A program made the position numbers and the translations under genes. Shown here piece by piece: positions 865-18,259 of a stretch of 20,000 nt of DNA. The stretch is taken from IMG/VR virus record IMGVR_UViG_3300036770_002685; one strand, given 5' to 3'. A model generated the notes under the pieces. That model was not told the DNA's origin. It ran no database searches and saw only the letters and a program-made list of their open reading frames with translations. The DNA is from an uncultured virus (IMG/VR IMGVR_UViG_3300036770_002685) (Duplodnaviria; Heunggongvirae; Uroviricota; Caudoviricetes). The stretch's first letter is position 1. Each line of letters begins with the position of its first letter.

Positions 865-1197
865 ATGGCAAACAAGTACTTTAGGAAGTATTCGATCCCG
901 AGTGCAACGACGGAAACGACGCTGTATACGGTGCCGGATGCCAATACGGCGGTCGTGTCGTCCTTACGAATTACTAATGGCAATGCAAGCAATGCCACGG
1001 TTACCGTCTCTGTGTATGCACTGGGCGAAGCAACGGAATACTTTGTTTTAAAGGGCTACAGCCTGCCGACAAATGCCACGATGGACGTTTTCTCAGGGGT
1101 GCCGCTCGTATTGGAAGCCACAGATGTGCTCAAAATTGAATCGTCCGTAGCGACAGTTCATTTCTATTTGAGCTATCTTGAGATGGACAGAAACTAA
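865..1197 (+). CDS. Small beta-rich phage virion protein (hypothetical)
   Basis: 110 aa, starts 1 nt after the previous stop. T/S/V-rich with TLYTVP and LVLEATDVLKI patterns typical of small podovirus tail-associated proteins. Confidence 0.65.
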   Translation: MANKYFRKYSIPSATTETTLYTVPDANTAVVSSLRITNGNASNATVTVSVYALGEATEYFVLKGYSLPTNATMDVFSGVPLVLEATDVLKIESSVATVHFYLSYLEMDRN

Positions 1198-1213
1198 TGA
1201 ATTACCACATAAT
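1184..1213 (+). promoter_or_regulatory. Candidate sigma70-type promoter for the ejection-protein genes
   Basis: TGGACA (1184-1189), 18-nt spacer, CATAAT (1208-1213): each box is a 5/6 match to consensus. It lies at the start of the only sizeable gap in the structural module. Confidence 0.45.
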
Positions 1214-1216
1214 TAC

Positions 1217-1283
1217 TGGCAATTTCGCGTCCTTTCCCGGCGCGCGACCCCGCCTGAGGGTCTATTGCCAATCTGGAAAGGAC
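1217..1283 (+). promoter_or_regulatory. Candidate structured cis-regulatory leader RNA with anti-Shine-Dalgarno pairing
   Basis: TGGCAAT 1217-1223 / ATTGCCA 1264-1270; CGCG 1226-1229 / CGCG 1241-1244; GACCC 1246-1250 / GGGTC 1258-1262; GTCCTTTCC 1229-1237 is the exact reverse complement of GGAAAGGAC 1275-1283, which contains the RBS of the ATG at 1288. Confidence 0.6.
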
Positions 1284-1287
1284 TATC

Positions 1288-3330
1288 ATGGCTGAAGCGA
1301 TGCAGGGAGGCGTTATGAGCCTGCCGCCGGAGATGGGCGGTATGGCGCAACCCCCTCAGAGTTACCTCACTCCTGAAGACGAAGCAACGCTAACGCAACT
1401 GCGTAATTCCGTCTCGCCCCAAGAGTTCAATCAAGAGATGTTCAACGCTGCGGAGCAGATGGACCCGCAGGCGATTGCACAACTGCGCAGCATGCTACAG
1501 GGCATGCGCTTGCCGCAGGAATTGATCGACTTGATGAAGGAGATGGTGAGTTCACTTTTGCAGGAACCTGCCAAGTATGCGGAAAATCGTCAGCAGTTGA
1601 TCGCAGAGGGGGTGCCAGAAGACCTCTTGCCGCCAGAGTTTGACCCTAATTACCTGATGGCGCTGGACATGGCGCTGGATCAGGTATCAGAGCCTGTTAT
1701 CCAAGGATTTGCAGCCGGTGGTTTTGTCCAAAATCCGATCTCTGCCGGGATTGCCAGCTTGGGCCGCAACGGCGACACGATGCTGGCGCACATCACGCCG
1801 CGCGAGGCGAGGATGCTTCAGCGCGCAGGTGGCGCAGGCACGATCAACCCGGTTACTGGATTGCCTGAGTTCTTTCTTGGCGGTCTTGCCAAAGCAATTG
1901 GCGGGGCATTTAGGTCAGTCGGCAAAGCGGTTTCAGGCGTTCTCACAGGCATCGGTAAAGCAGTTAAGAGCTTTGCCAGCAGTACTGTCGGTCGGATGGT
2001 GACATCGGTCGCGCTGGGCTTCTTCTTAGGCCCCGCAGCGGCGGGTCTACTAGGTGTTACGTCTGCCGCAGGCGTTGCGGCAATTAGCGGCTTTATTGGT
2101 GGTGCAGGCTCGACCTTACTTGCCGGTGGCAGCATTAAAGACGCCTTGAAGACGGGTGCGATTGGCGGTCTGACCGCTGGTGCGTTTTCCGGTGTTAGCG
2201 GCGGCGCAGGGGCCTTCAAAGCGGGCACTTACACAGGTCCTACGACCATCTCGGAGTCTTGGAAAGGCTTCACTGAGAAGTTGGGGACTAGACCGGCGGC
2301 GGACGCGGCAAAAGCGGTTGCTGGCGGGGTGGACGAAGCGGCAGCAGCCGCACCTCCTCCGCCTGCCATTGAATCGGCTGTACAGAGCTTGGATGAACTG
2401 AAGCTTGACGCAATCAGTGGTAGGACTGCAGCGGTTCCTCAGCCGTCAATTCAAGTAACTTCACCAACGGGACAAGCGGTTGCTGGTCCTGCCGTGGGGC
2501 CGTCTAAGTTTGACGTGATTTCACGCGGTTCGCCTCCGGCTGTTTCGCCTGCGCCTCCTGCACCTGCACCCGCACCAACTAATTACCTGATGAATCCGCC
2601 ACTGGGGGCGGTCAAGCCTGATCCGCTCGTACAAAAGTTGACTGCCAATCTTCCGGCAGATACGGCTTCGACCTCCGGCGGCGTGATGGACCTCTTGAAG
2701 CAGGGTGAGATACGGCAAGCGGCAACGAAGGCAGGCGAAGGTATTAAAGGGCTTTATGATGAGTATTTATCGCCCAGCAACATAGAAAAAGCAGGTGCGG
2801 AAAAGGCGATGACCGAGGCCACGAAAGCGGTCAACGCACTGCCTGCAGGCACTTCTGAAGCGGTCAAAGGCGCAGTCTTTAACAAGGTTTATGAATCGAA
2901 TCTACCCGGCATGTTGGCGACCTACGGTCCGCTGGCAGCAGCCGGTATCGGCGCAACCTATTTGGCAGGGGGCTTTGATGTCAAACCCCCGCCAAAGCCC
3001 GAGATTCCAGTCAGCGGCACTGAACTGTACAAGCGCAATCCATACCTTTTGACACCGCAAATTCGCACGATCTCGGCCTCCACCGGCCAGCCTTATCGCA
3101 TGGCGGCAGGGGGTATTGCGAGCTTGGCGCAGGGTTCAACGAAATACCCACGCAAGACCGGACCGATCGACGGCCCCGGCACAGGCACGTCGGATTCCAT
3201 CCCGGCGATGCTCTCTGACGGCGAATTCGTGTTCACCGCCAAAGCAGTCCGGGGCATGGGCAAAGGCTCACGGCGCAAGGGCGCAAAACGGATGTATGCC
3301 TTAATGAAGGCACTGGAAAAGAGGGCCTAA
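1288..3330 (+). CDS. Putative internal virion / DNA ejection protein
   Basis: 680 aa, A/G/P-rich, RBS GGAAAGGA 5 nt upstream. Motifs LGRNGDTMLAHITPREA...GTINPVTGLPEF and C-terminal GPGTGTSDSIPAMLSDGEFVFTAKAV (the latter type is familiar from tape-measure/ejection proteins). Hydrophobic glycine-zipper segments at about aa 238-305. Confidence 0.7.
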   Translation: MAEAMQGGVMSLPPEMGGMAQPPQSYLTPEDEATLTQLRNSVSPQEFNQEMFNAAEQMDPQAIAQLRSMLQGMRLPQELIDLMKEMVSSLLQEPAKYAENRQQLIAEGVPEDLLPPEFDPNYLMALDMALDQVSEPVIQGFAAGGFVQNPISAGIASLGRNGDTMLAHITPREARMLQRAGGAGTINPVTGLPEFFLGGLAKAIGGAFRSVGKAVSGVLTGIGKAVKSFASSTVGRMVTSVALGFFLGPAAAGLLGVTSAAGVAAISGFIGGAGSTLLAGGSIKDALKTGAIGGLTAGAFSGVSGGAGAFKAGTYTGPTTISESWKGFTEKLGTRPAADAAKAVAGGVDEAAAAAPPPPAIESAVQSLDELKLDAISGRTAAVPQPSIQVTSPTGQAVAGPAVGPSKFDVISRGSPPAVSPAPPAPAPAPTNYLMNPPLGAVKPDPLVQKLTANLPADTASTSGGVMDLLKQGEIRQAATKAGEGIKGLYDEYLSPSNIEKAGAEKAMTEATKAVNALPAGTSEAVKGAVFNKVYESNLPGMLATYGPLAAAGIGATYLAGGFDVKPPPKPEIPVSGTELYKRNPYLLTPQIRTISASTGQPYRMAAGGIASLAQGSTKYPRKTGPIDGPGTGTSDSIPAMLSDGEFVFTAKAVRGMGKGSRRKGAKRMYALMKALEKRA

Positions 3331-3333
3331 AAC

Positions 3334-4566
3334 ATGGCAACTGAATATAGCGTACAGACAATCCAAGAAGCGCCGGAGATTGAGAAGGCGCGATTAGCGC
3401 TGGTCAAAACCGGTGAAGAACTCGTCGCAAAACCCTTCACCATCCCCGGCTACGAAGTTGCCGGGCTTGGGGCAGGCCAGATTCAAGCTGCACGGCTCGC
3501 GGAACAGGGCGTAGGGGCTTACGCGCCTTACCTGACCGAGGCCAGCAAAGGGCTGACGGCAGGGCAAACCTTGACGCAAGAAGCGGCGCGCGGCATCGGT
3601 GCCTTGAATGTCCAACCGCAGATGCAAGCCGCCTACGGTGCCTATCAAGCAGGCGCTGGCGTGGCAGGCGACATCGGCAGATTGGCTGAGACAGCCGGTC
3701 AGGGCCTACCTACAGCAGCGTATGGTGCGGCGATGATTCCGGGCGCGACAACCGCGTACCAACCCGGACAGGCCACCGCGTACATGAATCCGTACCAGCA
3801 GCAGGTCACAGCCAACGCGCTACAAGAGATGCAACGCCAAGCCGACATTGCCATGCAAGGTCAGGCGGCACAGGCTGTTCGTGCGGGCGCGTTTGGCGGT
3901 ACTCGCGAGGGTGTGCAACGCGCAGAGACGGCCCGTAATCTGATGGACGTGATGGGCCAGCGCATCTTGCAAGACTATTCGCAGAATTATCTGCAAGCGC
4001 AGCAGGCCGCACAGCAGGCGTTTGAAGCGCAACAGCAGCGCCAACTTGCAGGCGGTCAGGCGTTGGGTCAGATGAGCCTTCTGCCCTCCCAAATCGCCTC
4101 ACAACAGGCCAATATCTTGGGTGGTCAGGCCAACATTTACGGTCAGCTTGCCCAAGGCATCGGTCAACTGGGCCTACAGCAGGGCCAGTTTGGCTTGCAA
4201 CAGGGCGCGGCATTGGGCGCAGCCGGTCAGCAGTTGGGTGCGATGGCAGGACAGCAGGCACAACTGGGTGCGCTGGGCCAGCAACTCAGCCAAGCAGACA
4301 TCGCACTGCTCTCGCAGGTGGGCGCACAGGAGCAGGCATTGCAGCAGGCTCGACTCGATGCGCTACGCGCAACAAAGTTGCAGGAGGCGATGATGCCGTA
4401 CCAGCAGTTGGCCTTCCAATCCGACATTTTGTCGAAGACCCCGAGCGGTCAAACCTCGATTACTGCCGCGTCGGCACCTACGCCAAGCCCATTGATGTCT
4501 GCATTGGGCACCGGCGTTGCTGCCCTTTCCAGCGTCGCAGGGACTAAGAAAGCAGGCTTGTTTTAG
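3334..4566 (+). CDS. Putative DNA transfer/pilot (ejection) protein, Q/A/G-rich
   Basis: 410 aa with YMNPYQQQV and AGAFGGTR motifs, long Gln/Gly/Ala helical repeats and a hydrophobic C-terminal segment. Composition and position are typical of podovirus ejection proteins. Confidence 0.7.
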   Translation: MATEYSVQTIQEAPEIEKARLALVKTGEELVAKPFTIPGYEVAGLGAGQIQAARLAEQGVGAYAPYLTEASKGLTAGQTLTQEAARGIGALNVQPQMQAAYGAYQAGAGVAGDIGRLAETAGQGLPTAAYGAAMIPGATTAYQPGQATAYMNPYQQQVTANALQEMQRQADIAMQGQAAQAVRAGAFGGTREGVQRAETARNLMDVMGQRILQDYSQNYLQAQQAAQQAFEAQQQRQLAGGQALGQMSLLPSQIASQQANILGGQANIYGQLAQGIGQLGLQQGQFGLQQGAALGAAGQQLGAMAGQQAQLGALGQQLSQADIALLSQVGAQEQALQQARLDALRATKLQEAMMPYQQLAFQSDILSKTPSGQTSITAASAPTPSPLMSALGTGVAALSSVAGTKKAGLF

Positions 4567-4574
4567 GAGCGATG

Positions 4575-6545
4575 ATGAAATCTAAAGTACTTGACAGGCC
4601 GATGTTCAAGAAGAAGGGGGCTCCTGTCCCGCCTGAGGAGGCCGACAACGTCGGCATCATGCAGGGCTTCATGGACGCCATCAACGGCATGGAAGAGGAT
4701 GACTACGAGGAAGAGGGCGATAGCGATATGGCAAAAATGCTGGATCGCCGTCCAGACTCGCCAGAAATCCTGATGAACAATCTGCGGGGCGACATGCGCT
4801 CGGTAGACGCACGGGTCGAGGAACTGGCTGACTTAGTCGGCTACCGTGCCGCTGCCGAGACGCCAACCGAAGTCTTGGCACTGCTGCAGCCGGTGCTGGC
4901 ACAGCAATCCCAGATGGCGGCACCCCCTCCGGGAGGCATGATGCCTGCCCCACCGATGCCGATGCCCGGCGCGCCGATGGCTGCACCTGCGGGCGGGGTT
5001 GCCGATTTAGCGGCCATGGCTCAAGGACCACAGACCACGCCACCAATGCCTGCCCCGGGACCGATGCCACCGGGCGGCGTTGCATCGTTGCCTGCTGCGG
5101 CTGAACAACAAGCGCCCATTGCAATGAAAGAGGGCGGGATTGTTCAACATTTTCAAGGAGGGTCCGGTGAGGAGGGCGTGACCCCCGTTGATCTAAGTGG
5201 GCAGCAAGCCTACTACCCTCCTGAGATCGTGGCAAAAGCGCAAGAAGATGTGATGAATCTGATGAGCGCGCAGCCTACGCCAACGCCGTCCATCGAAAGT
5301 GCGATGGCAGCGCGTCTGCCTACGTATGAGCGTCTTTTAGGCGTGGACAAGAACACTGTGCAATCGCAGATGTTGTTTGACATTGCACAAGGGGCGTTAA
5401 ACGTTGCTGCCGGTGTTGACGCGGAAGGGCGCCCCATTAGAGGTGCAGTATCTCCTGTCGGGCGTATCGCGGCAGGTATGCGAAACGTGCCTGCCATGAT
5501 TGGCGCACGTGCGGGTGAGCTTGCAAAAGCACAGCGTGAGATCAAGGCGCTTGCCCTACAAGCCGGTGAGAAGGACGTTGCATTGATCCGCGAGTACAAC
5601 TTCAGGTTGATCGACTCGCAGCGCAAGCTGTCGGCAGACATCATCAAAGCAACTGCCAAGGGACAAGGTTTTGGCACTGGGGTAAAAGGCGCTGCGTGGA
5701 ATTTTGTCACGCGGTTCGCGCCTGACTTTGCTGCGGGTAAGTTGACGCCAGAGAACGACCGTCGATTCTTGAGTTCGTATTCGATCATCTCGGAACCCAC
5801 GTATTTCACTGATCCGTTTACCGGGAATGTTCAATCGCGTGTTCCGCCTATCCCCGACTTCGTAACGAATTCGATTCGAGCACGGAAGGATATTCCTGTT
5901 CCAACCACTGGCAAGAAGGCTCCTGCGCCAGAGGGAGGCACTGCAGCGCCCGTGGAACCCGGAGTACCCGGAGCGCCCGTAAGCGAAGCGCCTTCTGATG
6001 TAACGCCCGCCGTTAAACCCACTGCTGCGAAAACGCTGTGGCAATTAACGCCTGTGCTGACCGGACCTGTTGCTACGGTTAAGGACGTTATTTCAAGCGT
6101 TCCCGGACTGGGTGGCGTAGGCAAGGACGTAACGCAGGCACGTGCTCAATACATGGGCGAATTCCGTGAGCTTGTAAAGAGCTTGCAAAACAGCCCCGTT
6201 TTTGCACAACGAGAGCGTGAGGCGATTGAGACCGAATTAAACATTGAGCCTCGGTTCTTCGACGACCCAGAGAAGCTGCGTAATAAACTGATCGGTATTG
6301 ACAAATACCTGACAGCACGTCTAACAGATGCGCGACTAAACGCAACAAACGAAAATCTGCCTGTCGAACAGCGAAAAGCGCATGCACAGATTGTGACCAC
6401 GCTTAAAAACTTCTTACCAAAGCTGGGTATTCCGCAGAAGATTTATACGATCAAGGCGTTGCAGGACTTCACGAGGAAAAATCCTCCGGGCACTCCCTTC
6501 TTGTGGAATGGTAGCGAAGTTCGCGTGACAAAAGGAGCGGAATAA
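4575..6545 (+). CDS. Putative internal virion / ejection protein
   Basis: About 656 aa. AGGAG at 4565-4569 favours the second ATG (4575) over 4572. N-terminal VLDRPMF, acidic patch, Pro/Met-rich linker, MKEGGIV motif, helical C-terminal half. Confidence 0.65.
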   Translation: MKSKVLDRPMFKKKGAPVPPEEADNVGIMQGFMDAINGMEEDDYEEEGDSDMAKMLDRRPDSPEILMNNLRGDMRSVDARVEELADLVGYRAAAETPTEVLALLQPVLAQQSQMAAPPPGGMMPAPPMPMPGAPMAAPAGGVADLAAMAQGPQTTPPMPAPGPMPPGGVASLPAAAEQQAPIAMKEGGIVQHFQGGSGEEGVTPVDLSGQQAYYPPEIVAKAQEDVMNLMSAQPTPTPSIESAMAARLPTYERLLGVDKNTVQSQMLFDIAQGALNVAAGVDAEGRPIRGAVSPVGRIAAGMRNVPAMIGARAGELAKAQREIKALALQAGEKDVALIREYNFRLIDSQRKLSADIIKATAKGQGFGTGVKGAAWNFVTRFAPDFAAGKLTPENDRRFLSSYSIISEPTYFTDPFTGNVQSRVPPIPDFVTNSIRARKDIPVPTTGKKAPAPEGGTAAPVEPGVPGAPVSEAPSDVTPAVKPTAAKTLWQLTPVLTGPVATVKDVISSVPGLGGVGKDVTQARAQYMGEFRELVKSLQNSPVFAQREREAIETELNIEPRFFDDPEKLRNKLIGIDKYLTARLTDARLNATNENLPVEQRKAHAQIVTTLKNFLPKLGIPQKIYTIKALQDFTRKNPPGTPFLWNGSEVRVTKGAE

Positions 6546-9500
6546 TGGCCGAAGATACCTTGAAACAGCAGTTAGAAGCACTGTCTTCTCCTGCTGGAGG
6601 GGGTCGAGCGTCTGAGTTGTTGACAGGCAAACCGCCTCCGGGTGTTGCCGTGCCAAGCACTGGCGCGGCAGAGGGTGCGATTAATCCGGTCACTGGGATG
6701 CCCGAGACAGTCGAGGCATTGTCTGAAGCAGGGGAGCCCACGGTCGGCGAGAAAGCCACCGAAGTGGGCTACGGTCTATTAGAGGGCGTGTCGCGCACCG
6801 CGCCTTCTGTCACAGGCGGCATGGTTGGCTTTCGTGCAGGCACCGGATTAGCGCCTTTGATGGGGCCATACGCCCCTCTAGGTATCGCCGGTGCCACGGT
6901 GGCTGGCGTAGGCATAGGCGCGCTTATAGGTAATGAGTTTGACATTCGCTATCCCGGCGTAGCGCGTCAAGACCTTGTGCCGTACCGCGAAGGCGGTAAG
7001 ACGTGGGGCGATACGATTGCGTTAGCACCCATCGCGTTCAATATTCCTGTCACGCAGGCACAACGCGTTTCTGAGGCTATCCGCATACTGGAGCCCACAG
7101 CAGCAAAGTTCGGCATGGAAGGCGCAGCACGTGCTTCGCGTTTCCTGACAGATGTGACAGCGGCCATGGGCAGAACTGCTCAGGCTTACCCAAAATCTTT
7201 CCTTGCAGCAGAGGCGATCTCTGGCGCAGGTGCTGGGGTTGGTGGCGGTATGGCTGAAGCCTATGCGCCGGGGGAACCCGGCACACGTTTGGCCTCTGAG
7301 ATTGTCGGCGGTGTGCTCGCCCCTTCTCGGCTGTTCATCCACATGGGTTCTGCCAAGGACCTGATGGGCAACATCGCGGCATCCTTTTCAAAAGACGCAC
7401 GGCAGAGCCGAGCAGCCAACAAGCTACGCTCGATCCTCGAAGACGCAGGCGAGGACGTTGACAAGGTCATCCGCTCGCTTGAGGCGAACGTCCCAAGAGG
7501 TGCACAGCCAACGGCTGGGCAAAAGACGGGTGTTCGTGCGCTCAGTATCTTGGAAAATACCCTAGCGCGAGAGAACGCCAAGTATGGCGGAGAGATCGCG
7601 GACCAAGGACTAAAGACGCTACAGGCTTACACGCTGTTGGCAAAGAACCTAGAACAGGTCGGGAGCCCACAAGCACTTCGTGCTGCTGCACAGTTACGTG
7701 AAGAAGCCTTCAACGCCATGCTGGAAAACCGGCAGAGCGTTGCGCTCTTAAACGCTGCACAGAAGATTCAACGCATTAGCAAAGACACGCCCGAGGCCCG
7801 TCAACAGATTGGCGAGATTGTGCGTCAAGCGACGCAGGATGCCTTGTCCGATGCACGGGGTCATGAGCGCACGTTGTGGACACGTGCCGTGGCGGACTTG
7901 TCACGGCCCACGACTCAGACAGTGACTGAGCGTGTTCAGGTCGGCAAGATGGTGGATGAAGCGGGTAGACCGCTCATGCGTACCCGCGAGGTAACGCGAG
8001 TAACGTTGCCCTCAGTTGTTCCCACCAATACCGTTCGCGACTTCCTGAACGAAACGCTGACTATTGCAGATTCTGTCTATAAAGGCACCGTGCCTCCCCT
8101 CGTCAAAAAAGTGATGGGGCAGATGGGAGTGACAGAGGCGGATGTCGCTCGCTACAAATTAGGCAGGCAGACGGAAGAGTTTGCCAATACAGGGATTGTC
8201 CCCGATCGCTTTTTGCCAAAAGGGCGCGATGTCCAACTGGGCGAACTGGTCAATATGCGCTCCAACCTTCTAGACCTTGCGCGTGATGCTGCGGTCAAAG
8301 GAGAAAACGCTGACGCGCGGTTCTTCGGCAACATTGCGAACAGCATGATGAAGGACTTGGATCAGGTCAAATCTCCTGCGTTGGACGAAGCGCGCAGCTT
8401 TTCAAGAACGCTGAATGACTACTTCACTCGCAGCTTTGCCGGGGAGATGCTCAGTAAAAAAGGCACGGGTGCCCTTGCTTATCCACCAGAAGTGCTTGTC
8501 CAGCGGGCTTTCGGCGCGAACAACGACTTGGCTGCGATGCGGATGGCCGACATCGAAGACGCAGTAGGCATGCTTCGCAAAGAGTACACCGATGCCGTCG
8601 CACGATTTGGCAGAGATAGCGCAGAAGCGCTGTCCTTGAAGCCCTTAGCCGATCTGTCCAGTTCTCGTGTGGTATCGATTCGAGACGCACAGCAGCGTAT
8701 TCTGCGTCTGGCTGCAGCAGAGACGATTGACCCGAATACGGGCCGCGTAAGCGCTACTCGCCTAAGCCGTTTCATTGAAAAGCGCAGACCGCTGCTGGAC
8801 AGATTGCAGATCACGGATGATCTATCCGATGCGGTTAAAGCAGAAAACGCGTTTAAGGCAACGGCAAGTGCTAACAGCGTATTGGACAAGAGCCTGAGAA
8901 ATCAGACAGCCTTTGCGCAAGTGCTAAAGCGTGAGTCGCCGTCCATGGCGATCGCGGATGCCTTGAACAGTAAGTTCCCTGTTCGCAGTCTCTCAAACAT
9001 CGTCAAGCTGGCAAAAGCGGGTGGGCCGGATGCCGCAGCGGGGCTGAAGTCGAGTCTCTACGATTATGCGTTTACCAAGGCCGGAGGCGACAGGGGCTTT
9101 AACGCGCAGGCGTTCAAGGATGCGTTTTTCAGTCCCATTGCCCAAGGACAACCTTCGATTTACAACATCCTGCGCTCGCAGGGTGTGATGACCCTCTCGG
9201 AAGGCAAGAACCTCAGGCGCATCATCGATCCGATGATACGTGTCGAGCAATCGCTGGGCGATCGTCAGCTTATGGAAGGCGTCATGCAGGGCGCAGACGC
9301 AGCAACCGAACTGGCATTGCGTGTGGTCGGCTCGCGCATTGGTACTAGTGTGTCAGGTAGTGGACCCGGATCGCTGATTGCGGCTTCAGCAGGCTCGAAG
9401 TATATGCGCCAAATCTTCGATAAGTCTCCGATGCTGTTGGTGCGAGGGATCATCGAAGAGGCCACGAAAGACCCACAGATGATGGCGCTGCTCCTACGTC

Positions 9501-9805
9501 GCGGTCAGTCAGAAGGTGAGAAGTTGATGCTCGCGCGTCAGATGCATGCCTATCTGACCGCCGCAGGCTTGAACTACGAACGGTTTACTGAACCCGGCCC
9601 AGAGCCCACGGTCCAAGCGCCACAGCCTGTGCGTAGTTTTGCACCACGTCGCCAACCCGCAACCGCCTCCACACGGGGGGTTCCGGGGTTAAATATTGGT
9701 GGCGGAGGTCCTCCTCAGTTAGGTGGTGGCGCGCCTGCGGCGGGCGGTGGATCAAGTCGCGAGATGTTGCAACGTCTTTTCCCGTTTGACGCAACGCTAC
9801 GATAG
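6545..9805 (+). CDS. Large putative internal virion / DNA ejection protein
   Basis: 1086 aa, TAATG coupling with RBS AAGGAG. N-terminal glycine-zipper hydrophobic helices and a long Ala/Arg/Leu-rich helical body. Last and largest gene of the ejection cluster. No catalytic motif recognised. Confidence 0.7.
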   Translation: MAEDTLKQQLEALSSPAGGGRASELLTGKPPPGVAVPSTGAAEGAINPVTGMPETVEALSEAGEPTVGEKATEVGYGLLEGVSRTAPSVTGGMVGFRAGTGLAPLMGPYAPLGIAGATVAGVGIGALIGNEFDIRYPGVARQDLVPYREGGKTWGDTIALAPIAFNIPVTQAQRVSEAIRILEPTAAKFGMEGAARASRFLTDVTAAMGRTAQAYPKSFLAAEAISGAGAGVGGGMAEAYAPGEPGTRLASEIVGGVLAPSRLFIHMGSAKDLMGNIAASFSKDARQSRAANKLRSILEDAGEDVDKVIRSLEANVPRGAQPTAGQKTGVRALSILENTLARENAKYGGEIADQGLKTLQAYTLLAKNLEQVGSPQALRAAAQLREEAFNAMLENRQSVALLNAAQKIQRISKDTPEARQQIGEIVRQATQDALSDARGHERTLWTRAVADLSRPTTQTVTERVQVGKMVDEAGRPLMRTREVTRVTLPSVVPTNTVRDFLNETLTIADSVYKGTVPPLVKKVMGQMGVTEADVARYKLGRQTEEFANTGIVPDRFLPKGRDVQLGELVNMRSNLLDLARDAAVKGENADARFFGNIANSMMKDLDQVKSPALDEARSFSRTLNDYFTRSFAGEMLSKKGTGALAYPPEVLVQRAFGANNDLAAMRMADIEDAVGMLRKEYTDAVARFGRDSAEALSLKPLADLSSSRVVSIRDAQQRILRLAAAETIDPNTGRVSATRLSRFIEKRRPLLDRLQITDDLSDAVKAENAFKATASANSVLDKSLRNQTAFAQVLKRESPSMAIADALNSKFPVRSLSNIVKLAKAGGPDAAAGLKSSLYDYAFTKAGGDRGFNAQAFKDAFFSPIAQGQPSIYNILRSQGVMTLSEGKNLRRIIDPMIRVEQSLGDRQLMEGVMQGADAATELALRVVGSRIGTSVSGSGPGSLIAASAGSKYMRQIFDKSPMLLVRGIIEEATKDPQMMALLLRRGQSEGEKLMLARQMHAYLTAAGLNYERFTEPGPEPTVQAPQPVRSFAPRRQPATASTRGVPGLNIGGGGPPQLGGGAPAAGGGSSREMLQRLFPFDATLR

Positions 9806-10911: not shown

Positions 10912-12350
10912 GCTTTGAGCTCCTCTCCCATGACTTGGGTGGCAATATTAATCTTGTCGCGCAGGGATTTAACGATCTTCTCGTCCACCGTGCCGGGGCA
11001 GATCAGGTCGATGTAGGTCACGTTCTTGGTCTGGCCGATCCGGTGCGCCCGGTCTTCTGACTGGAGCCGCTTCTCAAGGTCAAAGGAATTGCTGTAGTAC
11101 ACCACCAGATTTGCCGCCGTTAAGGTCAGGCCGTAGCCGCCGGTGGTCGGGTTGCCGATGAAGAACCGCAGTGGGCTGTTCGGGTCTTGGAATTCGTTGA
11201 CGATCTCCTGCCGCTTGTCGGTCTCCGTCTCCCCGTAGTACGCCGCCGCCGAGTTCATCCCGTAGACCGAGGACAGGGCCAGCTTGATCGCCTCAATGTC
11301 ATGCCGATAGTTGGCCCAGATGATCATCTTGCCGTCGGACTCCTCGACAATACTCAAGAGCTCCTTGATCCGGTTGTTTGGCAACTCCAACACGTCCCCG
11401 TTATCCAGCTTCACGTGCCCGCAGACGATCTGATGCAGTCGCATAATCTGCGTCAAGGCGTTCACCGTGGACACATCCCCCTCTTTGAACATCGCCAACG
11501 CCATCAGCCGCATCTCTTTGTACGCCTTGGCCTGCTCTTCAGTTAAGTCCACCTCGCGCTTGGTGTACAGCTTGTCCGGTAGGTCCAAGCACTCTTCCTT
11601 CGTCACGCGAAAGCTAAAGCGGTCAAGCTTCTCCCGTAGCTCCTCCAAATGCCGAAAGCCCAGAATCTGCTTGAAGCTATGCGTTGCCAGATGCCGCTCC
11701 TGCATCACCGCATAGCGCGCCTGAAACGTGTAGAAACTGTCATGCCCCAAGCATCGCGGATCAAGGAACACGCACTGCTGGAATAGGTCCAACGGATTCT
11801 TCGTCACCGGAGAGCCGGTCATGATGCGCTTGAACTTGGCCTGCTTGCCAATCTTCGTCGCATTCTTTGCCCGTGCCGCCGTATGCGTTTTGATCGTGGT
11901 CGATTCATCGATCGCCATGAACGCCTCATGTGCAAGTAAGTACCTACTTGCGAATCTGACCCCTTTCTCAGTGGAAAGGGCCTCAACGTTCATGATCAAA
12001 ATCTTGAAGTCTTCGGTGATCTCGAACAAGTTTTCTAGGGCTTGGCTTTCTGCTTTCTTGGGGGAGGCACTCCATAACACCGTTCGGTAAACCACATGAT
12101 CCGGCATGTGTTTGGGTATCTCAGTGTCCATCCAGTTCCGATAAACCCCCTTCGGTGCGATGATCAACGCGGCATTAATCTGCCCTTGGTCATACAACAT
12201 TGCCATGTTGTTGATCAACATGAAAGACTTGCCCGTGCCCATCTCGGAAAAGAGAGCGGCCACTCGCTTCTCCCAAAAGCGTGTCAAATACGCCTCTTGA
12301 TGCAAGAAGGGCTTGTTCTTATAAGGATACCGCTGCAAAAATTCGTCCAT
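10899..12350 (-). CDS. SNF2-family (SF2) helicase/ATPase
   Basis: Motif I EMGTGKS, motif II DEST, III TGSP, V GGYGLTL, VI QSEDRAHRIGQ. True start is probably ATG at 12350 (MDEFLQRY..., 483 aa), preceded by AGAAAGGAGAA on the minus strand, not 12572 as in the ORF track. Confidence 0.92.
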   Translation of the reverse strand: MDEFLQRYPYKNKPFLHQEAYLTRFWEKRVAALFSEMGTGKSFMLINNMAMLYDQGQINAALIIAPKGVYRNWMDTEIPKHMPDHVVYRTVLWSASPKKAESQALENLFEITEDFKILIMNVEALSTEKGVRFASRYLLAHEAFMAIDESTTIKTHTAARAKNATKIGKQAKFKRIMTGSPVTKNPLDLFQQCVFLDPRCLGHDSFYTFQARYAVMQERHLATHSFKQILGFRHLEELREKLDRFSFRVTKEECLDLPDKLYTKREVDLTEEQAKAYKEMRLMALAMFKEGDVSTVNALTQIMRLHQIVCGHVKLDNGDVLELPNNRIKELLSIVEESDGKMIIWANYRHDIEAIKLALSSVYGMNSAAAYYGETETDKRQEIVNEFQDPNSPLRFFIGNPTTGGYGLTLTAANLVVYYSNSFDLEKRLQSEDRAHRIGQTKNVTYIDLICPGTVDEKIVKSLRDKINIATQVMGEELKAWLI

Positions 12351-12374
12351 CAAAATTCTCCTTTCTAAAGGGAC

Positions 12375-12404
12375 TTGCAAATTCCCGAAAGCCAAGTATA
12401 TACT
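12375..12404 (+). promoter_or_regulatory. Sigma70-type promoter of the replication operon in the divergent intergenic region
   Basis: TTGCAA (12375-12380), 18 nt, TATACT (12399-12404). It sits between the divergent starts at 12350 (-) and 12435 (+). Confidence 0.6.
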
Positions 12405-12434
12405 CAAACCTCGAACACAGAAAGGAGAAATGAA

Positions 12435-12788
12435 GTGCCAACAGTTTATGCTGTTTCCGAAACCGCACAGCACAACATATCGTCTGCGCTTGACTTCGGA
12501 GAAATCGTTACGATCTTGCCTCCGAACGCACAGGTTGCTTTCTCTGTTGCGCCTACGGTACGCAGGGCGCATCGGGTGCTTGAAACCTTTTCGGATGACG
12601 ATTATCTTTTATTCATTGGCGATCCCACCGCCATGTCTATCGTCGCAGTCGTTGCAGCACAACGCAACAACGGACGCTTTAAATGCTTGAAGTGGGACAA
12701 GCGGGAGAGGCGATACATACCGATCCAAATTGATTTTAATAATGCATTCAAGAAAGGAGAAATAAATGAGTTTGACGAACATCTTTGA
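12435..12788 (+). CDS. Conserved phage hypothetical protein (alpha/beta)
   Basis: GTG start at 12435 after AGAAAGGAG, giving 117 aa MPTVYAVSE...DYLLFIGDP...LKWDKRERRY. First gene of the rightward operon. Confidence 0.7.
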   Translation: MPTVYAVSETAQHNISSALDFGEIVTILPPNAQVAFSVAPTVRRAHRVLETFSDDDYLLFIGDPTAMSIVAVVAAQRNNGRFKCLKWDKRERRYIPIQIDFNNAFKKGEINEFDEHL

Positions 12789-15948: not shown

Positions 15949-18259
15949 AATCTTCGGCCCTCCCGGCTCTGGCAAGACCACGTATCTTCTAAACTTGGTC
16001 GAACAAGAACTAGAGTCCGGGGTGCCCTCTCGCTCGATTGGCTACTTCGCGTTCACACGCAAAGCGGCCAACGAAGCGCGGGACCGTGCGATCGCCAAAT
16101 TCAACGAGCTCAACGCAGAGACGGACTTCCCGTGGTTCCGAACGCTGCATAGCCTCGCCTATCGTTGCCTGCGCGTATCGAACAACGAGATCATGAAGCC
16201 AGAGCATTACCGCGAGTTTGCGCGGCAAGCAGGACTGGACATGAGTGTGAGCACTGGAGACGAAGAGTTTGTCGTTCAGACGGATAACCCAATACTTAAC
16301 GAAATCAACCTCGCCCGCATCCGTGGCGTTGATTTAAAAACGCATTACAACAATTCTCGAATTCCGATTGAGTGGTTTCACTTCGAATATGTCGAACGTG
16401 CGTACCGACACTACAAGTATTCGAACAACCTAATGGACTTCACCGATCTTCTTGAGCAGATCGTGCAAGAGCCGGACTACCTGCCAAAGCTGGAAACGGT
16501 GATCATCGATGAAGCGCAGGACCTTTCTAGGCTACAATGGCAAATGGTGTATGCCCTAGCTGAAAGGAGCAATAACGTGTACATAGCAGGAGACGACGAT
16601 CAGTGCCAGCCGGGGCATACAAAAATACTAACAACGGATGGGGAGGTTTTGTTAAAAAACTTAGACCCTGCTATTCACCGGCTGATTTGCTATGACCGCA
16701 ATGGTTCTCATGTTACGGGGTATAAAAACGGTTATTCGTTTAAAAAGGCTCGTCGCACGTATACCGGGAAAATTTATACGGTGACCACGGCCTCAGGGCA
16801 TATATCAAGCTACACAGACAATCACCACTGCATCGTTCGCTGGAAACCCCTTAAAGAGGTTATACACCTGCGCGTAGTTTATTTGATGCAGAAAGGAAAC
16901 AACTTCCGCATTGGGCAATGTCAACTTTTTAGGGCGGATGGGTGTGTGCATGCGTGGGTAAGAGCCCACGGGGAACGCGCAGACAAGCTGTGGGTTTTGC
17001 GCGTGACTGAATCCATAGAGGAAAGTACTTATTACGAAACGCTTTGGTCTTATCTTTTTGGCATACCTCAGACTGTTTTCAAAGCAGGTGCTTCTTCCGT
17101 CCTCTCCCAGAAAGCCACAGACAAACTATTCAGCGAAATCCCCACTTACCCGGCGGCTATGCAACTCTTTGAAGCACTCGATGTGTCTTTCGAATATCCA
17201 CTTTATGAAAGAAGTCTGATCAGTGCTAAACGCGGAGGATCACAAATATTTGAAGCGCATGCTGCATCCTTGATTCCATCAGCAATGCGTATTGGTGTGA
17301 TAGCTGGTAAAAAAATTCAATGGGAAAACTTCTCCCTAGCTGCCAAAATAAAAACATGTGAGGTTTATTCTCTTGACGTAGAAAAGCACCATAATTACTT
17401 TGCAGATGGCGTTTTGACGCATAACTGTGTGTTTACTTGGGCAGGAGCGGACGTTAAAGCATTCCTCTCTTTAGAGGGTAATGTTAAGGTCTTACAACAA
17501 TCCTACCGTGTCCCTGCAAAGATTCACGCGTTAGCAAACAAAGTGGTCAACCGCATCCGCTCGCGGCAAGAGAAGGAGTGGCACCCTCGCACCGAAGAGG
17601 GCCGCATCTTCTATTACGAAGCCTTTGAACACGTCAACGTCACACAAGGTGATTGGTTACTCCTTGCCTCCACCAACTACATGCTAAACGACTTGCATGA
17701 GTGGTTAAAGTCACAGGGATTGATGTTCGAGCGCCACGGACAACGGAGCATCTCCGAGAACATCCTGACCGCCGTACTCGGCTGGGAAGCGCTGCGTAAG
17801 GGCAAAGCCATGCCCATGCCCGTGGTCAAAACGATCTACCGGTTCTTAGGGGCTGAGTTCGTCAAACGCGGGTTCAAGACCCTGCGCGACATCGATCCCA
17901 ACCGCGAATACACCTTGACGCAGTTGCAGGAATCATTTGGTCTTTTGACCAACGATATCTGGCACAAGGTGCTGACCAAAATATCGGATGCCCAGCGCCA
18001 GTACATCATCTCGATCCTGCGACGTGGGGCGAAGCTAAACGACAGAGCGCCGATCAAGCTCTCTACGATCCACGGCGCGAAAGGCGGGGAGGCGGATCAC
18101 GTCTTACTGCTCACGGACCTCTCGCCCAAGTTCGCCAACGAATACGCCCATAACGCCGATGACGTGAACCGCTTGCTGTATGTGGGGCTGACCCGCGCCA
18201 AAGAGACGCTGCACATCATCCGGCCCAAGTCCATTGATAGGGGATTTAGAATTGAATAA
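15935..18259 (+). CDS. UvrD/Rep-like superfamily 1 DNA helicase, intein-containing (774 aa precursor, 500 aa after splicing)
   Basis: Walker A GPPGSGKT, Ia AFTRKAA, TLHS, Walker B IIDEAQD, motif III GDDDQ|CVFTWAGA split by the intein, IV QSYR, V STIHGAKGGE, VI LYVGLTRAK. Confidence 0.93.
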   Translation: MKIHKIFGPPGSGKTTYLLNLVEQELESGVPSRSIGYFAFTRKAANEARDRAIAKFNELNAETDFPWFRTLHSLAYRCLRVSNNEIMKPEHYREFARQAGLDMSVSTGDEEFVVQTDNPILNEINLARIRGVDLKTHYNNSRIPIEWFHFEYVERAYRHYKYSNNLMDFTDLLEQIVQEPDYLPKLETVIIDEAQDLSRLQWQMVYALAERSNNVYIAGDDDQCQPGHTKILTTDGEVLLKNLDPAIHRLICYDRNGSHVTGYKNGYSFKKARRTYTGKIYTVTTASGHISSYTDNHHCIVRWKPLKEVIHLRVVYLMQKGNNFRIGQCQLFRADGCVHAWVRAHGERADKLWVLRVTESIEESTYYETLWSYLFGIPQTVFKAGASSVLSQKATDKLFSEIPTYPAAMQLFEALDVSFEYPLYERSLISAKRGGSQIFEAHAASLIPSAMRIGVIAGKKIQWENFSLAAKIKTCEVYSLDVEKHHNYFADGVLTHNCVFTWAGADVKAFLSLEGNVKVLQQSYRVPAKIHALANKVVNRIRSRQEKEWHPRTEEGRIFYYEAFEHVNVTQGDWLLLASTNYMLNDLHEWLKSQGLMFERHGQRSISENILTAVLGWEALRKGKAMPMPVVKTIYRFLGAEFVKRGFKTLRDIDPNREYTLTQLQESFGLLTNDIWHKVLTKISDAQRQYIISILRRGAKLNDRAPIKLSTIHGAKGGEADHVLLLTDLSPKFANEYAHNADDVNRLLYVGLTRAKETLHIIRPKSIDRGFRIE
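16604..17425 (+). mobile_element. Intein (274 aa) in helicase motif III, with an internal putative endonuclease domain
   Basis: Block A CQPGHTKILTTDG directly after GDDDQ, block B YTDNH, block F VYSLDVEKHHNYFADG, block G VLTHN followed by +1 Cys. Removing it restores GDDDQCVFTWAGAD. DNA is AT-richer than the flanks. Confidence 0.95.

What the first reader, a model, noticed from the sequence alone, without database searches (positions are those of the whole stretch)
1184..1290. Compact multi-stem leader RNA with a 9-bp anti-SD pairing ahead of the DNA-ejection genes
Seen: most of 1217-1283 can be paired. A 7-bp closing stem (TGGCAAT/ATTGCCA) encloses two hairpins (CGCG-loop-CGCG and GACCC-CGCCTGA-GGGTC), giving a three-way junction. 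GTCCTTTCC, mostly in the first hairpin loop, is perfectly complementary to GGAAAGGAC, the RBS 4 nt before the ATG at 1288. A promoter-like TGGACA-18-CATAAT would start transcription near the first stem. It is the only large gap in an otherwise tightly packed structural module. Inference: a pseudoknotted or switchable translational control element (riboswitch-like, thermosensor or protein-bound operator) that limits or times synthesis of membrane-active ejection proteins. I do not recognise it as a known RNA family.
Basis: partly seen in the sequence, partly recalled or inferred. Interest (0 to 1): 0.8.

Follow-up and report, generated by a model that had tools for sequence, protein, structure and literature searches.

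The report
Conserved phage leader masking ribosome site
A freshwater phage and many uncultured relatives keep a small folded RNA, just behind a promoter and ahead of their DNA-delivery genes, that can hide the first gene's ribosome-binding site; it is an uncatalogued example of a known way of throttling translation, probably not a metabolite sensor.

Summary
The element is real. It lies in 127 of 134 relatives where both flanking genes are adjacent, and almost always before the same gene. No Rfam match near gathering score. P3 covaries strongly on a tree. P2 is 6 bp, not 4, and near-invariant. P1 is looser. The conserved anti-SD pairing is 7 bp (9 bp in 60 of 78) and shows no compensatory change, but all 7 leaders lacking GGAAAGG also have altered loops. 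The three-way junction is not the lowest-energy fold: a rod with the SD buried is. The promoter (TRGACA, 17-18 nt, SATAAT) is conserved even where it moves off the upstream gene. Its likely start (A1221) cuts off most of P1's 5' arm, so P1 may form only on read-through RNA. Best reading: a translational dimmer for low-copy ejection proteins. It would work like the MS2 maturation leader (an early hairpin holds the anti-SD, then the SD captures it), possibly tuned by transcript origin. A riboswitch or thermometer is unlikely. Start site and regulation are untested. New variant of a known kind.

The parts
865..1197 (+). Upstream 110-aa gene (phrog_1276; relatives annotated as virion structural protein); its last codons carry the -35 element
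1184..1189 (+). -35 element TGGACA (TGGACA 63, TAGACA 20, TGGACG 1 of 84 leaders with a readable -35; never TTGACA); kept 17-18 nt from -10 also where it lies outside the upstream gene
1208..1213 (+). -10 element CATAAT (GATAAT 41, CATAAT 40 of 85)
1221..1221 (+). Predicted transcription start: conserved A 8 nt after the -10 hexamer, preceded by a pyrimidine (A in 61 of 67; 25 of 29 in the metagenome set). Inferred, not measured
1217..1223 (+). P1 5' arm (family core GCCA at +5..+8 after -10); mostly upstream of the predicted start
1226..1244 (+). P2 hairpin: 6 bp with 7-nt pyrimidine loop; near-invariant; holds the anti-SD
1229..1237 (+). Anti-SD; 1231-1237 is the conserved 7-nt part, 1229-1231 is shared with the P2 stem
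1245..1245 (+). Single C between P2 and P3 (required by my extraction pattern, so its invariance is partly by construction)
1246..1262 (+). P3 hairpin: variable sequence and loop, strongly covarying stem
1264..1270 (+). P1 3' arm; its GC core can also pair inside the rod fold
1271..1274 (+). Linker to the SD; in the family P3 end to SD is 11-13 nt in 77 of 85 and A-rich (47% A in the last 7 nt)
1275..1283 (+). Ribosome-binding site GGAAAGG-AC (GGAAAGG in 78 of 85)
1288..3330 (+). Controlled gene, 680 aa; no Pfam or PDB match; C-terminal motif shared with tape-measure proteins; probable first ejection-cassette protein
3334..4566 (+). Second cassette gene, phrog_4287 'DNA ejection protein' (E 1.1e-5)
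4572..9805 (+). Third and fourth cassette genes (657 and 1086 aa), tightly packed; the positional counterpart of the last in DSL-LC04 is annotated 'DNA transfer protein'

Best explanation
A cis-acting, ligand-independent translational dimmer in the 5' leader of the ejection cassette. A host sigma-70-type promoter (inferred) makes a cassette mRNA starting at about 1221. As the RNA emerges, P2 and P3 fold first and P2 holds the anti-SD (predicted). When the SD emerges it can pair with the P2 loop (5-7 bp pseudoknot) and then invade the inner P2 pairs, giving a rod with the SD buried (predicted lowest-energy state). Ribosomes load mainly in the window before this or by breathing, so output is low, as suits low-copy virion proteins (inferred). 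P1 buttresses the junction fold. Because its 5' arm lies mostly upstream of the predicted start, it would form on read-through RNA from the structural operon and make that RNA easier to open (inferred; the weakest step). Shown by comparative data: P2, P3, promoter, gene linkage, loop/SD co-loss. Not shown: start site, any effect on translation.
For: Presence in 127 of 134 protein-fetched loci with both flanking genes adjacent. 114 of 119 viral matches to the P2 pattern alone also have the -10 upstream and GGAAAGG downstream. 108 of 109 scorable metagenome matches precede the same gene family. P3: own-partner Watson-Crick match 69 of 85 vs 21.6 swapped (max 34); at least 15, 7, 10 and 5 simultaneous changes on a protein tree. 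P2: at least 3 simultaneous changes, and 15 changes at one position, all G<->A (opposite U in 81 of 85 leaders). All 7 of 85 leaders lacking GGAAAGG also have altered loops; 5 others change C to U keeping a U.G pair. After GGAAAGGA the next base is C or U in 60 of 65 and never G, vs G in 11 of 18 other AAGGA sites of this genome. Forced folds: rod favoured by 6.0 kcal/mol without the P1 arm and 2.9 with it; gap narrows over 1 kcal in 68 of 76; P2 probability 0.87 before the SD emerges. Starts more than 1 bp upstream of position 7 are rare in E. coli (PMC5730371 passages). In pelagiphage HTVC027P the counterpart gene gp82 has about 6-8 times the reads of gp81 at the first three time points and about equal reads at 9-12 h (PMC12753301 Table S3 rows), as an internal promoter predicts.
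Against: The loop/SD helix has 0 of 6 pairs with a compensatory change; SD conservation is expected anyway. The SD background is mixed: G follows AAGGA in only 1 of 20 other genes in the loci. P1 is paired in only 75% of cells, 18 of 85 lack its core, and its outer pairs show no more simultaneous changes on the tree (8-9) than control column pairs (7-9). Ensemble SD opening is nearly the same for short and long RNA (0.10 vs 0.14). Pseudoknot energy was not modelled; P1 could equally lock the SD in. 17 loci with a different upstream gene express the same gene with no such leader, and HTVC027P has no match to the model. The HTVC027P early counts are small (21-250 reads) and could include carry-over RNA.
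Confidence: 0.55

Rival explanations
1. Protein-bound operator: a phage protein (a cassette protein, the upstream structural protein or an assembly factor) binds the near-invariant P2/P3 core and shifts the fold, giving feedback control tied to virion assembly.
For: P2 pairs 1, 3 and 6 never vary in 85 leaders (partly by construction of the extraction pattern); P2+P3 persist where the SD pairing is lost; an own promoter plus an inhibitory leader suits feedback; T4 gp32 and gp43 operators are precedents (PMC3014915 passages).
Against: No RNA-binding domain found in the neighbouring proteins. The same gene occurs without the leader in 17 loci. P2 invariance is also explained by its double use in two folds.
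Confidence: 0.2
2. P1-locked pseudoknot, T4 gene e-like: read-through RNA forms junction plus pseudoknot and is silent; RNA from the internal promoter lacks P1 and is the translated form.
For: Near-constant, A-rich linker from P3 to the SD (13 nt in 57 of 85, shorter in the lineages without SD pairing) fits a pseudoknot; P1's arm overlaps the promoter like the T4 late-promoter hairpins.
Against: Without P1 the rod still buries the SD and is favoured by 6.0 kcal/mol; no compensatory change in the pseudoknot helix.
Confidence: 0.1
3. P2+P3 is mainly a 5'-end stabiliser, pause or weak transcription attenuator; SD complementarity is secondary.
For: A GC-rich hairpin lies a few nt after the predicted start in three different leader types of this phage group. 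In 6 of 7 leaders without GGAAAGG, P3 is followed by at least 5 U in 8 nt, vs 3 of 77 canonical (L088 scores terminator-like; L073 does not at P3).
Against: Does not explain the loop being kept complementary to the SD in 77 of 78, nor P1. The 7 leaders come from only 2-3 lineages.
Confidence: 0.08
4. Small-molecule riboswitch or RNA thermometer.
For: Junction plus SD pseudoknot resembles several translational riboswitches in topology (recalled); two mutually exclusive folds.
Against: One gene context only, a virion gene; 1 of 120 genome-collection matches had promoter and SD, in front of the same kind of gene; junction strands vary freely; no Rfam hit; no predicted change between 20 and 37 C.
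Confidence: 0.07

Closest known systems
5' leader of the MS2/Levivirus maturation (A-protein) gene (PMC4615214, passages read)
   Same: Multi-hairpin leader; an upstream complementary sequence pairs with a 7-nt SD over a distance; a transient hairpin holds that sequence and delays pairing; the product is a low-copy virion protein.
   Different: dsDNA phage transcribed by host RNA polymerase; about 70 nt, three stems, anti-SD mostly in a hairpin loop; an internal promoter overlaps P1; no known homology; kinetic delay untested here.
T4 genes e, soc, 49 and I-TevI: transcript-dependent RBS hairpins (PMC3014915, passages read)
   Same: A promoter overlaps the 5' arm of a leader helix, so short and read-through transcripts can fold differently.
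   Different: In T4 the lost arm is the anti-SD itself and the short late RNA is the active one. Here the anti-SD stays in both RNAs, only P1 is lost, the promoter is sigma-70-like, and the energy model predicts the opposite sign.
T4 gene 32 and gene 43 autogenous operators (PMC3014915 passages; PMC10690425 passages)
   Same: Conserved structured leader directly before a phage gene.
   Different: No nucleic-acid-binding product identified; the SD is paired by the RNA itself.
Unnamed viral candidate structured RNAs of Fremin et al. 2023 (PMC10690425) and phage cis motifs GP20-a/b (RF02991, RF03003)
   Same: Comparative-genomics candidates upstream of phage genes.
   Different: No Rfam match. 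Whether it is among the 8,495 IMG/VR candidates could not be settled: the tables searched gave no hit and the one opened holds no sequences; alignment files were unreadable.

Membership tests
Any Rfam 15 family | cmscan score at gathering threshold | tested here: not met
   0 hits in the window; only mir-512 at 17.7 bits vs 94, E 0.43; 0 hits at E<=1 in 15 related loci
MS2/Levivirus maturation leader (works like) | Upstream sequence pairs with the SD at a distance in the final fold | tested here: met
   Predicted in 60 of 77 short leaders at p>0.5; prediction only
MS2/Levivirus maturation leader (works like) | A conserved earlier hairpin holds that sequence and excludes the full SD helix | tested here: met
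   P2 conserved with compensation; P2 probability 0.87 before the SD emerges; shares 1229-1231 with the SD helix
MS2/Levivirus maturation leader (works like) | Folding delay sets protein yield | not testable with these tools
   Needs folding kinetics and reporters
MS2/Levivirus maturation leader (member) | ssRNA phage genome, cloverleaf with four hairpins, maturation gene | tested here: not met
   dsDNA phage with DNA polymerase A; three stems
T4 e/soc/49/I-TevI hairpins | Promoter overlaps the 5' arm of a leader helix | tested here: inconclusive
   P1 core at +5..+8 after -10, start not mapped; outer P1 pairs not above control on the tree
T4 e/soc/49/I-TevI hairpins | Short transcript lacks the anti-SD and has an open RBS | tested here: not met
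   Anti-SD lies downstream of the predicted start; SD opening 0.10 in the short RNA
T4 e/soc/49/I-TevI hairpins | Phage late-sigma promoter (TATAAATA) | tested here: not met
   Sigma-70-like -35/-10
Metabolite riboswitch | Mutually exclusive folds covering the RBS | tested here: met
   Junction vs rod; prediction plus conservation
Metabolite riboswitch | Conserved unpaired nucleotides forming a pocket | tested here: not met
   Junction strands vary; conserved bases are in P2, the loop that pairs with the SD, and one junction C
Metabolite riboswitch | Association with ligand metabolism or transport genes, several contexts | tested here: not met
   108 of 109 scorable matches precede one virion gene family; 1 of 120 genome matches complete
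Metabolite riboswitch | Ligand binding | not testable with these tools
   Needs in-line probing
RNA thermometer (fourU/ROSE type; features recalled) | Weak SD helix that opens across the physiological range | tested here: not met
   SD opening 0.12 at 20 C, 0.10 at 37 C in 77 leaders
Autogenous protein operator | Product or partner binds the leader | not testable with these tools
   No RNA-binding family found for neighbours

The most novel reading that the evidence does not exclude
A transcript-origin switch that runs opposite to T4's. The 5' arm of P1 is written in the promoter's discriminator, so RNA from the internal host promoter collapses into the SD-buried rod and is nearly silent. Late read-through RNA completes the three-way junction before the SD emerges, traps the anti-SD in a small loop and turns the ejection cassette on. 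One 90-nt sequence would act as promoter and as a sensor of which promoter made the message. Lineages that lost the SD pairing would have replaced it with a terminator-like P3 or an operator-like repeat in the promoter.
Probability: 0.2. Interest if true: 0.78.

Novelty: new variant of a known kind. Interest (0 to 1): 0.52.

Why it matters
How tailed phages limit and time their few-copy ejection proteins is little studied. This gives a compact, covarying, testable leader in a widespread uncultured freshwater phage group related to the abundant HTVC023P-type pelagiphages. The marine relatives have a different but equally conserved leader at the same place, so control at this point looks like a group-wide need, and HTVC027P is cultured. 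If the transcript-origin step holds, it is a new sign of a known phage trick and a small synthetic-biology part.

Tried and rejected
Rfam: nothing. RNA runs: no RNA holder was listed; no evidence either way, and no reads were laid. Genome collection: 120 core-pattern matches (scan stopped at its limit); 119 lack the -10 plus SD context and look like chance or unrelated hairpins. Model R1 had P1 misnumbered and was not used; R2 replaced it. A helix next to the -10 in phage 023Pt_psg01 first looked like a P1 analogue but is not conserved in its relatives, so I dropped it. The promoter is not a general late-promoter consensus: a matrix built from the family scores 22.4 here and at most 7.6 elsewhere in the genome (circular for this site). 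Translational coupling from the upstream gene is unlikely: P1 starts about 20 nt after the stop, and about 35-38 nt in the long-gap lineages. A DNA operator reading of the CGCG repeats was rejected: arm spacing varies and U.G/U-A exchange points to RNA. The cluster control at 80% identity collapsed to one cluster and the script stopped. Protein look-ups for the 680-aa product gave no function. Literature: no relevant paper holds the motif strings; searches listed no description of this leader.
Full report
Context. The window is part of a 49.4-kb virus record. Its DNA polymerase is 77% identical to that of lake phage DSL-LC04 and about 47-52% to HTVC023P-type pelagiphages. DSL-LC04 was proposed as family 'Dishuiviridae' with a computationally predicted host (PMC10611076, passages) and carries the same leader. 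The flagged gap separates a 110-aa virion gene from four tightly packed genes (680, 410, 657, 1086 aa). The second hits phrog_4287 'DNA ejection protein', as do its counterparts in DSL-LC04 and HTVC027P. The first has no informative family, structure or Atlas match.

Observation. Every feature named is present. Alone it is only suggestive: z about -2 for the tight region, -0.14 with flanks. The lowest-energy fold is a rod in which 1229-1237 pairs with 1275-1283.

Distribution. I fetched 160 loci by protein similarity, the best 80 of 230 and of 132; some contigs occur in both sets. The promoter-plus-P2 pattern is in 135 of 160: 127 of 134 where both flanking genes are adjacent, 0 of 17 motif-less loci with another upstream gene. 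Of the 7 misses, L069 and L143 are degenerate copies by eye, L020 and L065 another leader type. In the genome collection 1 of 120 did. A metagenome scan (pattern included the SD; limit reached) gave 119 matches in 120 loci, 114 with the full promoter, and 108 of 109 scorable ones before the same gene family. The model finds one copy in the window's genome.

Structure. 128 distinct leaders were reduced to 85 differing by at least 4 edits. My extraction pattern fixed several P2 positions and the junction C, so their invariance is partly built in. P3 is the firmest: 9 different 5' arms among 84, own-partner Watson-Crick match 69 of 85 vs 21.6 when swapped, and at least 15, 7, 10 and 5 simultaneous changes on a tree of the flanking proteins (partners were chosen by best pairing, which leans in its favour). 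P2 is 99% paired, with at least 3 two-sided changes and 15 G/A exchanges at the position opposite U; RNAalifold recovers P2 and P3 unaided. P1 is looser: 75% paired. Own duplex energy is -5.9 vs -4.5 +/- 0.2 swapped and -6.5 vs -5.1 +/- 0.3 in 34 new metagenome leaders, with one fully re-sequenced 7-bp P1 in L558. These swaps ignore relatedness. The pair just outside the core is enriched by tip counts (32 vs 16.7 of 67; 0.61 vs 0.33 over 22 clusters; 12 vs 7.4 of 27) but not on the tree (8-9 simultaneous changes vs 7-9 in controls).

Anti-SD. Seven pairs are conserved; 9 bp is possible in 60 of 78. No pair has a two-sided change. Indirect support: all 7 leaders without GGAAAGG have altered loops, in 2-3 lineages; five leaders change C to U and keep U.G; 1 of 78 with GGAAAGG breaks the loop (L130). 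The base after GGAAAGGA is C/U in 60 of 65 and never G. Background is G in 11 of 18 sites in this genome but 1 of 20 in other genes of the loci, so this test is not decisive. Bases 1229-1231 serve both P2 and the longer SD helix, so the two cannot be complete together.

Promoter. TRGACA, 18 nt (77) or 17 nt (7), SATAAT in 84 of 85. Where the gap is 101-108 nt the -35 lies outside the upstream gene and keeps its spacing, so it is not just codon conservation. A conserved pyrimidine-A step lies 7-8 nt after the -10. In E. coli the modal start is position 7, and starts more than 1 bp upstream are rare (PMC5730371, passages); I assume this holds in the unknown host. P1's core lies at +5 to +8, so it would form mainly on read-through RNA. 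In cultured HTVC027P the counterpart gene gp82 (C-terminal motif E 9e-13; same position; TTGACG-17-TAAAGT upstream) has 142, 250 and 248 reads vs 21, 39 and 31 for gp81 at the first three time points, and 6,189 vs 6,967 at the fifth (PMC12753301 Table S3 rows; columns assigned to times by order). That fits an internal promoter active early plus late read-through, though counts are small and that phage lacks this leader.

Mechanism. In 76 canonical leaders P2 has probability 0.87 before the SD is made. At full length the rod wins by 6.0 kcal/mol without the P1 arm and by 2.9 with it. That is the logic of the MS2 maturation leader, where a transient hairpin holds the anti-SD and delays the final SD helix (PMC4615214, passages). 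I put a ligand-free translational dimmer at 0.55, a protein operator at 0.2, a T4-like lock on read-through RNA at 0.1, a stabiliser or attenuator at 0.08, and a riboswitch or thermometer at 0.07. ViennaRNA ignores pseudoknots, and the ensemble SD opening differs little between the two transcripts (0.10 vs 0.14), so the direction of P1's effect is open.

Novelty. No Rfam family. Full-text searches for the motif strings and for such a leader listed no description; PMC5737381 was seen as a listing only. For the viral screen PMC10690425 I read passages, searched 4 of 6 held supplements without a hit and opened part 1 of one, which has no sequences; its alignments and figures could not be read, so an unnamed earlier candidate is not excluded. 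Verdict: a real, uncatalogued phage leader RNA, a new variant of SD-masking translational control; interest 0.52.

Noticed in passing
L401:3335-3426 and L404-L481 (upstream of the match): Marine HTVC023P-type relatives carry a different, strongly conserved 90-nt leader before the homologous gene: TTGAC-type -35, 17 nt, TAAATT, then a hairpin whose loop can alternatively pair with the sequence just 3' of it; one compensatory variant (L444). No hit with model R2 in the 21 such loci searched, none in Rfam for L404 and L441. A separate candidate RNA motif.
   Followed up: partly
L020:2834-2944 and L065:2834-2941: Third leader type at the same locus: CGCG hairpin with a long loop that can pair with the 5' segment (compensated between the two), plus a small hairpin over the SD.
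   Followed up: no
L031, L038, L073, L088, L092, L135 leaders: Lineages that lost the loop/SD pairing have a U-rich tract right after P3 (6 of 7 vs 3 of 77). L073 (also L031, L038 by eye) has an 8-bp inverted repeat in the promoter spacer. Possibly transcriptional control replacing translational control.
   Followed up: partly
L094-L106 and L113-L123 (17 loci): Same downstream gene, different upstream gene, no motif; short leaders with their own -10-like hexamer and, in several, a 4-bp hairpin over the SD.
   Followed up: partly
window 16604-17434 (+): The UvrD helicase appears to carry an intein: PF14890 at aa 275-497, E 2.2e-5, below the curated cut-off; Cys...His-Asn-Cys ends visible in the translation.
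   Followed up: no
window 12340-12435: Back-to-back strong ribosome-binding sites and a promoter-like stretch between the helicase (- strand; true start probably near 12350, not 12572) and the replication genes.
   Followed up: no
window about 3100-3270 (+): The C-terminal 50 residues of the 680-aa protein match tape-measure proteins of unrelated siphophages and are the part shared with the pelagiphage counterparts.
   Followed up: no
L298:640-790 (-): A complete copy (62 bits) on an 8.4-kb contig filed in a Bifidobacterium MAG, before the same kind of gene; probably a misbinned phage contig.
   Followed up: no
G000:C1:40606-40754 (-), outside the window: A 147-nt gap after a 302-aa gene (probably the major capsid gene; not tested) holds a terminator-like hairpin, then a further structured stretch before the next gene.
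   Followed up: no
L166, L169, L178, L239, L257, L336, L356, L392: An unrelated conserved hairpin followed by U-rich sequence shares the P2 core by sequence; several hits are in Desulfovibrio records.
   Followed up: no
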